Source of the DNA: Octopus vulgaris
Lineage: Eukaryota
Length of the DNA: 64,000 bases
Assembly: GCA_951406725.2 (NCBI GenBank)
Contig: OX597829.1
Location: 11,780,001-11,844,000, forward strand
Direction: 5' to 3'
The position numbers and the translations under genes are program-made. The stretch's first letter is position 1. Each line of letters opens with the position of its first letter. Below, in pieces: positions 60,692 to 60,728 of this stretch. The notes under the pieces were generated by a model. The model was not told where the DNA came from. It did not search any database and saw only the letters and a program-made list of their open reading frames with translations.

Positions 60692-60728
60692 CTATTGAAA
60701 AGTTTGCAAGATGCAACGAAAATTTTAG
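60692..60728 (+). ncRNA. Hammerhead-like motif with U3-A8 core
   Basis: CUA-UUGAAAA-G-UUUGC-AAGAU-GCAAC-GAAA-AU-UU-UAG; inverted copy at 58046-58082. Confidence 0.5.

What the first reader, a model, noticed from the sequence alone, without database searches (positions are those of the whole stretch)
60692..60728. Ultra-minimal hammerhead family with a covariant U3-A8 core and UUU cleavage triplet
Seen: the consensus of copies at 60692(+), 58046(-) and 36920(-) is CUA-UUGAAAA-G-GUUGC-AAGAC-GCAAC-GAAA-AU-UU-UAG. It occupies the same position near the element 3' end as the canonical HHRs of other PLE families here. Established: C3-G8 is a tertiary Watson-Crick pair in the hammerhead core, and a U3-A8 swap preserves it. 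Helix III is reduced to the palindrome AAUU, implying obligate dimers. Standard CUGANGA searches would miss this 37-nt motif. Each individual copy carries one damaging change, so activity is inferred for the consensus only.
Basis: partly seen in the sequence, partly recalled or inferred. Interest (0 to 1): 0.75.

Follow-up and report, generated by a model that had tools for sequence, protein, structure and literature searches.

The report
Known-type Penelope minimal hammerhead, U-A core
The 37-base motif is really there, in the tail of a very abundant Penelope-like jumping gene, and has the shape of the small RNA motifs that likely cut such elements' transcripts in pairs; each of its odd features was already published, so it is an ordinary new example whose cutting is untested.

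Summary
Observation confirmed. The three copies exist. Their majority fits a strict minimal-hammerhead descriptor that 0 of 20,000 shuffles fit. Contigs from four public runs give the same consensus at every listed position. It differs at 5 of 37 positions, all tolerated (P about 0.003-0.008). The motif lies about 620 nt 3' of a Penelope-type GIY-YIG remnant, with an inverted partner copy, so the PLE assignment holds.

The novelty does not hold. Cervera & De la Peña 2014 report U3-A8 minimal hammerheads (about 1,300 in Schistosoma, one with the same UUGAAAA core). They also show the AAUU helix III with a UUU triplet (oyster), U17 in 24 of 56 rows, and 34-nt examples. Only this combination is absent from their table.

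Activity is untested. All three named copies are broken, and AAAAUUUU is predicted to form a mis-registered 8-bp dimer. New member of a known kind; interest 0.15.

The parts
60692..60728 (+). Minimal type I hammerhead motif, copy 1: helix I 60692-94/60726-28, U3 60695, A8 60700, bulged G 60702, helix II 60703-07/60713-17, GAAA 60718-21, U17 60725. G10.1>U breaks this copy.
   Evidence: family base at 60703 is G in 90-95% of laid depth
58046..58082 (-). Copy 2, broken by C11.1>A (58057)
36920..36956 (-). Copy 3, broken by G5>C (36951); outer helix I pair changed on both sides, C-G to A-U
16837..16873 (-). Copy 4, diverged subfamily, passes the strict descriptor; U3·G8, N7=C, one U-A to U·G change in helix II, two loop changes
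58703..58927 (-). 5'-truncated, stop-interrupted remnant of a C-terminal GIY-YIG endonuclease of Penelope type
   Evidence: 6 of 12 homologs scanned hit Pfam GIY-YIG at E<=0.01, one above the curated cut-off; no direct Pfam hit for the 56-aa piece
57957..58702 (-). 3' UTR / pseudo-LTR of that element, microsatellite-rich, holding copy 2 about 620 nt after the ORF end
58972..60877 (+). Inverted 5'-truncated partner copy of the same 3' repeat (58972-59192 and 60471-60877), holding copy 1; family 3' ends at about 60827 and 60877
   Evidence: loose ends in all four runs
59193..60470 (+). Mariner-type DNA transposon with 39-bp inverted ends inserted into the partner copy (not part of the motif)
   Evidence: Transposase_1, E 2.7e-24
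36822..37238 (-). Solo truncated 3' repeat holding copy 3
20570..21649 (-). Diverged sister element (about 75% identical GIY-YIG remnant plus 3' UTR); its tail most likely continues at 16976-16750 with copy 4
   Evidence: alignment score 217 vs block-shuffled control max 75 of 100
16977..20330 (-). Decayed non-LTR retrotransposon (RT plus restriction-like endonuclease pattern) lying between the sister element and copy 4; read as a later insertion
   Evidence: RVT_1 E 1.5e-05, below cut-off; clade label R4-like is recalled, not searched

Best explanation
This is the minimal type I hammerhead motif in the 3' pseudo-LTR of a high-copy Penelope-like retrotransposon family, with U3-A8 in place of C3-G8; in the source elements it likely cut the element's RNA after U17, likely weakly and as a dimer. 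Shown: the sequence, its fit to the minimal-hammerhead layout, its place behind a GIY-YIG remnant with an inverted partner copy, and its better retention than the adjoining flanks. Inferred: two copies in a tandem transcript would pair their AAUU palindromes to build helix III for each other; U3-A8 would keep the tertiary pair that positions the core; the element's protein may be needed as a helper, as for the anole element. The three named genomic copies are broken, probably by decay after insertion, and are probably inert.
For: Descriptor fit with 0 of 20,000 shuffles. Four public runs, 5,541-16,555 contigs each, restore G10.1 (90-95%) and list only one true polymorphism in the motif, in loop II, against 17 of 74 flank positions (Fisher p 0.006-0.03). 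Diverged copy: 32/37 identity vs 45/77 in the two flanks (p 0.003), all 5 changes tolerated (0.26-0.82% of random 5-change sets pass). Core aligns in register with the canonical CUGAUGA family. Upstream ORF remnant has 27 homologs at E<=0.001, with GIY-YIG and, in several, a CxxC linker. Two 3' end points 50 nt apart resemble the PLE tail. Each feature has a published PLE precedent; U3-A8 was reported active in vitro in other hammerheads (PMC3088659 passage).
Against: No cleavage or expression data. Covariation in the four copies is not above its control (198 of 500 shuffles). Among the three young copies the motif is not clearly better kept than a block further 3' (6/111 vs 5/111 differences), and a CA-rich block upstream is as conserved in the diverged copy (32/36). 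One search showed 40 of 80 variant rows, so variants in the core below roughly 5% are unseen, and its counts are not independent events. The predicted lowest-energy homodimer is an 8-bp AAAAUUUU duplex that swallows A13, A14, U17 and U1.1, not the active register. Helix I is only 3 bp, and an upstream UCAA can pair with the core UUGA (6-bp hairpin predicted in copy 4). Published minimal hammerheads cleave poorly even as dimers.
Confidence: 0.72

Rival explanations
1. The motif descends from a PLE hammerhead but no longer cuts. It is kept as a hairpin plus palindrome that the element's protein binds or that pairs two RNAs, or it is simply carried along.
For: Weak helix I, U17, and competing folds. 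For the anole element, hammerhead cleavage was not needed for insertion in vitro and no RNA-seq reads ended at the site (PMC11167929). U3·G8 in copy 4 is a wobble at a pair usually Watson-Crick.
Against: Unpaired catalytic positions (U4, G5, A6, A9, G12-A14) are identical between the two subfamilies while N7 and loop II change, which is the pattern expected if catalysis, not just a hairpin, was kept.
Confidence: 0.22
2. The motif belongs to the 3' tail of the non-LTR retrotransposon at 16977-20330, not to a Penelope-like element; this would be a new host element type for a minimal hammerhead.
For: Copy 4 lies directly 3' of that element on the same strand.
Against: Copy 2 follows a GIY-YIG remnant with no such element between. 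A homologous GIY-YIG remnant and 3' UTR lie just 5' of the LINE (score 217 vs control max 75), so the LINE splits a PLE. The LINE tail does not align to the family better than control (43 vs control max 46).
Confidence: 0.04
3. A chance look-alike in an A/T-rich repeat tail.
For: The stretch is A-rich, folding of copy 1 is no better than shuffles (z 0.37), and no hammerhead family is among the 150 of 207 Rfam rows shown.
Against: 0 of 20,000 shuffles fit; expected position in a PLE; register with canonical cores. The Rfam rows shown also lack the canonical minimal hammerheads of this window.
Confidence: 0.02

Closest known systems
U3-A8 minimal hammerheads of Schistosoma mansoni Cercyon PLEs (Cervera & De la Peña 2014, PMC4209133, Fig. 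2A, Fig. S3 rows S. mansoni 3 and 4)
   Same: Type I, U3-A8, row 4 has the same UUGAAAA core, one unpaired base before G10.1, 4-nt palindromic helix III, U17, 3-bp helix I, PLE repeat.
   Different: Helix III is ACGU there and AAUU here; helix II is 6 bp there and 5 bp here; unpaired base A there and G here; different host phylum and probably a different PLE clade.
Crassostrea gigas PLE minimal hammerhead (same paper, Fig. S3)
   Same: Helix III AAUU, UUU triplet, 5-bp helix II with 5-nt loop, 3-bp helix I, found 3' of a partial PLE; 37 nt by the same count.
   Different: Its core is canonical C3-G8.
Saccoglossus kowalevskii (1) PLE minimal hammerhead (same paper, Fig. S3)
   Same: U3·G8 core and U17, as in copy 4.
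   Different: Helix III ACGU, 6-bp helix II.
Natural U3-A8 hammerheads of Perreault et al. 2011 (PMC3088659)
   Same: The same core covariation, there first reported in nature and said to be active in vitro.
   Different: The passage read does not concern minimal PLE motifs lacking a stable helix III.
Poseidon PAc hammerhead of Anolis (PMC11167929)
   Same: PLE pseudo-LTR hammerhead; C3/G8 single mutants dead, double mutant partly rescued; two 3' ends giving a tail.
   Different: Canonical core; tested, and found to cleave only with the element's protein.

Membership tests
Minimal type I hammerheads of metazoan PLEs (min-HHR) | Core N3-UGA-N7-N8-A9 and GAAA with N3-N8 paired | tested here: met
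   U3-A8 in the majority and copies 1, 2; U3·G8 in copy 4; copy 3 has G5C
Minimal type I hammerheads of metazoan PLEs (min-HHR) | One unpaired nucleotide between A9 and G10.1, and a G10.1-C11.1 pair | tested here: met
   G at 60702 in 4 of 4 copies; G-C pair in the majority and 2 of 4 copies; G at 60703 in 90-95% of laid depth
Minimal type I hammerheads of metazoan PLEs (min-HHR) | Palindromic 15.2/16.2, little or no loop 3, U16.1 and H17 | tested here: met
   AAUU then U17 in 4 of 4 copies; same as the C. gigas row
Minimal type I hammerheads of metazoan PLEs (min-HHR) | Short helix I closing the motif (2-6 bp) | tested here: met
   3 bp, paired in 12 of 12 cells
Minimal type I hammerheads of metazoan PLEs (min-HHR) | Compensatory changes across the family | tested here: inconclusive
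   One two-sided change and one wobble in 4 copies, not above control (198/500); one search lists no stem variants but hides 40 of 80 rows
Minimal type I hammerheads of metazoan PLEs (min-HHR) | Self-cleavage after N17, as a dimer | not testable with these tools
   No assay; the runs laid are contigs and cannot show RNA ends
Penelope-like elements (C-terminal GIY-YIG) | C-terminal GIY-YIG endonuclease upstream of the repeat | tested here: met
   Remnant 58927-58703(-); homologs with GIY-YIG; feature search gives GIY-YIG only as a lead (0.89)
Penelope-like elements (C-terminal GIY-YIG) | Pseudo-LTR structure with inverted 5'-truncated copy and optional tail | tested here: met
   Inverted partner 58972-60877; 3' ends at 60827 and 60877 in all four runs; described for PLEs in PMC8557442
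Penelope-like elements (C-terminal GIY-YIG) | Telomerase-like RT in the same ORF | not testable with these tools
   All copies in the window are truncated 3' of the RT and no genome is held
Neptune/Nematis PLE clades | Zn-finger-like CX2-5CxxC linker between RT and EN | tested here: inconclusive
   Seen by eye in 3 of 6 homologs read (P0007, P0014, P0016; related spacing in P0019, P0027); the window's own remnant starts after the linker; no tree built

The most novel reading that the evidence does not exclude
One PLE lineage preserves a stepwise rewiring of the catalytic tertiary pair: a sister subfamily with U3·G8 and a younger, very abundant one with U3-A8, both active, on a frame (AAUU helix III, U17, 3-bp helix I) so weak that cleavage would depend on the element's protein. 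That would be a natural series for testing how a ribozyme core crosses a compensatory valley.
Probability: 0.15. Interest if true: 0.4.

Novelty: new member of a known kind. Interest (0 to 1): 0.15.

Why it matters
It adds one more PLE family to a known class and is a reminder that CUGANGA-only descriptors undercount PLE hammerheads, a point already made in 2014. Its modest use is as assay material: a high-copy family that combines U3-A8, AAUU and U17, plus a U3·G8 sister copy. What PLE hammerheads do in vivo is still open, but this finding does not make that question more testable than the anole system already does.

Tried and rejected
No whole genome is held, so no genome-wide subfamily alignment. 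Rfam scan of the window: no hammerhead family among the 150 of 207 rows shown. A degenerate pattern of the motif found 0 matches in metagenome contigs and 0 in prokaryote genomes, as expected for an animal repeat. Sequencing-run search: no RNA holder listed; not evidence on expression. Pfam gave nothing for the 56-aa remnant or the ORF at 32871-33590, and the two do not align. The idea that the motif is the tail of the non-LTR element was tested and rejected. One search used a helix I that was off by one column and is disregarded; one search is the correct count. Lünse et al. on dimer cleavage of PLE hammerheads is not held; I saw only the review's summary. Paper searches 'hammerhead + Penelope + octopus' (4 listed), 'C3U + G8A' (none) and 'U3-A8/U3A8/C3-G8' (2 listed) showed no description of this particular family; most subscription papers are not searched. 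Earlier-findings look-ups by place and by sequence were empty.

Full report
Observation. Against that majority, copy 60692 has G10.1>U and a loop II C>U, copy 58046 has C11.1>A, and copy 36920 has G5>C plus a two-sided C-G to A-U change at the outer helix I pair. I wrote a strict descriptor: helix I of 3 bp or more, N3-UGA-N-N8-A with any N3-N8 pair, optional bulge, G10.1-C11.1, helix II of 4 bp or more, GAAA, paired or palindromic helix III, UH. The majority fits it; 0 of 20,000 dinucleotide shuffles of the 224-nt majority and 0 sites in 30 shuffled windows do. The descriptor was written after seeing the motif, and U·G was admitted after seeing copy 4. In the real window it has two hits, neither listed in the finding: a canonical minimal hammerhead at 63136-63177(+) with U17, and a fourth, diverged copy of this family at 16873-16837(-) with U3·G8.

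Family-level check. No genome is held. I laid 4 of the 24 listed public runs (four organism labels) on 60630-60880 at 80% likeness: 16,555, 6,903, 14,038 and 5,541 contigs, so the family is abundant in all four. Among the 40 of 80 variant rows shown, only two fall in the motif: 60703 T>G at 90-95% (the window copy is the odd one; the family has G10.1) and 60712 T>C at 61-77% (loop II). Counting by hand and leaving out three window-private changes (60687, 60757, 60760), 17 of the 74 flanking positions are polymorphic, against 1 or 2 of 37 in the motif (Fisher p 0.006 or 0.03). The weakest rows shown reach about 5%, so I infer, but cannot see, that hidden core variants are below that. The downstream flank is A-rich and thinly covered, and positions are not independent, so this is supporting and not decisive. 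Loose ends at 60691 and 60732 show contigs that share the motif but not its flanks. A G inserted at the 3' edge of helix I occurs in 16-25%.

Conservation between subfamilies. Copy 4 matches the majority at 32 of 37 motif positions, against 27 of 41 upstream and 18 of 36 downstream (p 0.003). Its five changes are N7, A8>G, two loop II bases and a U-A to U·G in helix II. 79 of 111 possible single changes break the model, and 0.26-0.82% of random five-change sets pass (0.24-0.65% if only Watson-Crick N3-N8 counts). Against: a CA-rich block further upstream is as conserved (32 of 36); among the young copies the motif (6 of 111 differences) is no better than a block further 3' (5 of 111); and pair covariation on four sequences is not above control (198 of 500).

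Which element. Copy 2 lies about 620 nt 3' of a stop-interrupted ORF remnant at 58927-58703(-). Pfam does not recognise the 56-aa piece, but it has 27 homologs at E<=0.001; 6 of the 12 I scanned hit GIY-YIG, and several show a CxxC-type linker before the domain, which points loosely to Neptune/Nematis (PMC8557442 passages). Copy 1 is in an inverted, 5'-truncated partner of the same repeat that starts at 58972 and is split by a mariner element. That layout is described for PLEs. Family 3' ends cluster at 60827 and 60877 in all four runs, like the optional PLE tail (PMC11167929; published length 30-40 bp, here about 50). Copy 4 follows a decayed non-LTR element, which raised the chance of a different host element. 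But a homologous GIY-YIG remnant and 3' UTR lie on the far side of that element (score 217, block-shuffled control max 75 of 100), while its own tail does not align above control (43 vs max 46), so I read it as an insertion into a sister PLE. Aligned with the CUGAUGA family at 52213 and 26915, the cores fall in register and a 3' block is shared. The host looks like a cephalopod from my recall of its SINEs; this was not tested.

Mechanism. By analogy with published PLE motifs, the most likely working is cleavage after U17 in tandem transcripts, where two AAUU palindromes pair to form helix III for each other. This is inferred. Signs of weak activity: helix I is 3 bp; the predicted lowest-energy homodimer of the majority 37-mer is an 8-bp AAAAUUUU duplex that buries A13, A14, U17 and U1.1; and an upstream UCAA can pair with the core, a 6-bp hairpin being the predicted minimum in copy 4. 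Published minimal hammerheads were inactive as monomers and weak as dimers. The anole PLE hammerhead needed the element's protein and was dispensable for insertion in vitro.

Comparison with print. I read parts 1 and 2 of 4 of the main text of PMC4209133 (results, discussion, part of methods) and parts 1 and 2 of 3 of its supplementary PDF. It reports a U3-A8 variant in S. mansoni Cercyon elements with about 1,300 hits, the unpaired base between positions 9 and 10.1, palindromic 15.2-16.2 and the dimer model. In its Fig. S3 (56 rows, counted by hand): 2 have U3-A8, one with the same UUGAAAA core; 1 has U3·G8; 24 have U17, including all 3 mollusc rows; the oyster row has AAUU with a UUU triplet; and two rows I measured (C. 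remanei, Nematostella 2) are 34 nt by the same count. No row combines U3-A8 with AAUU. From PMC3088659 I read passages: U3-A8 covariation was first seen in nature in 2011 and had been shown active in vitro. From PMC6765202, PMC3884650, PMC8557442, PMC11167929 and bioRxiv 10.64898/2026.07.22.740005 I read passages only. Lünse et al. is not held, so further variants in it or in its supplements may cover this combination too. Earlier AI notes from this scan reach the same verdict for U3-A8 motifs in other genomes; I saw them after reading the 2014 paper and do not count them as evidence.

Verdict. A real motif, correctly spotted and correctly placed in a PLE, and a new member of a known kind. Interest 0.15. 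The boldest reading left open is a natural U3·G8 to U3-A8 series within one lineage; it rests on a single copy whose G8 may be private.

Noticed in passing
window 63136-63177 (+): Intact canonical minimal hammerhead (CUGAUGA core, ACGU helix III, U17) inside a short repeat; passes the strict descriptor.
   Followed up: partly
window 52208-52254 (+) and about 26880-26920 (-): Canonical-core hammerhead family with a damaged 6-nt palindrome in helix III; the minus-strand copy has A9>C. Shares a 3' block with the U3-A8 family.
   Followed up: partly
window 32206-32290 (+) and 38263-38330 (+): Hammerhead-like motifs with a very long helix II region and an 8-nt palindromic helix III; the first lies upstream of a GIY-YIG-like ORF (32358-33593) that does not align with the remnant at 58927.
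   Followed up: partly
window 60686-60698 and equivalents: Family UCAA just upstream of helix I is complementary to the core UUGA; in copy 4 this extends to a predicted 6-bp hairpin. Could be an off-state or chance.
   Followed up: partly
window 16977-20330 (-): Decayed non-LTR retrotransposon with RT, CCHC and restriction-like endonuclease patterns and a (TACA)n-containing tail, apparently inserted in a PLE 3' UTR.
   Followed up: partly
window 20330-20570 and 21640-21860: Inverted repeat pair (98% over 95 bp at the outer end) flanking the sister PLE fragment; origin not worked out.
   Followed up: no
window 59193-60470: Mariner-type transposon with 39-bp inverted ends and a 231-aa open DDE stretch.
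   Followed up: partly
window 42699-47734 (-), 54042-57062 (+), 51256-51789 (+): Long RT- and endonuclease-like ORFs of other LINEs, by eye from the ORF list.
   Followed up: no
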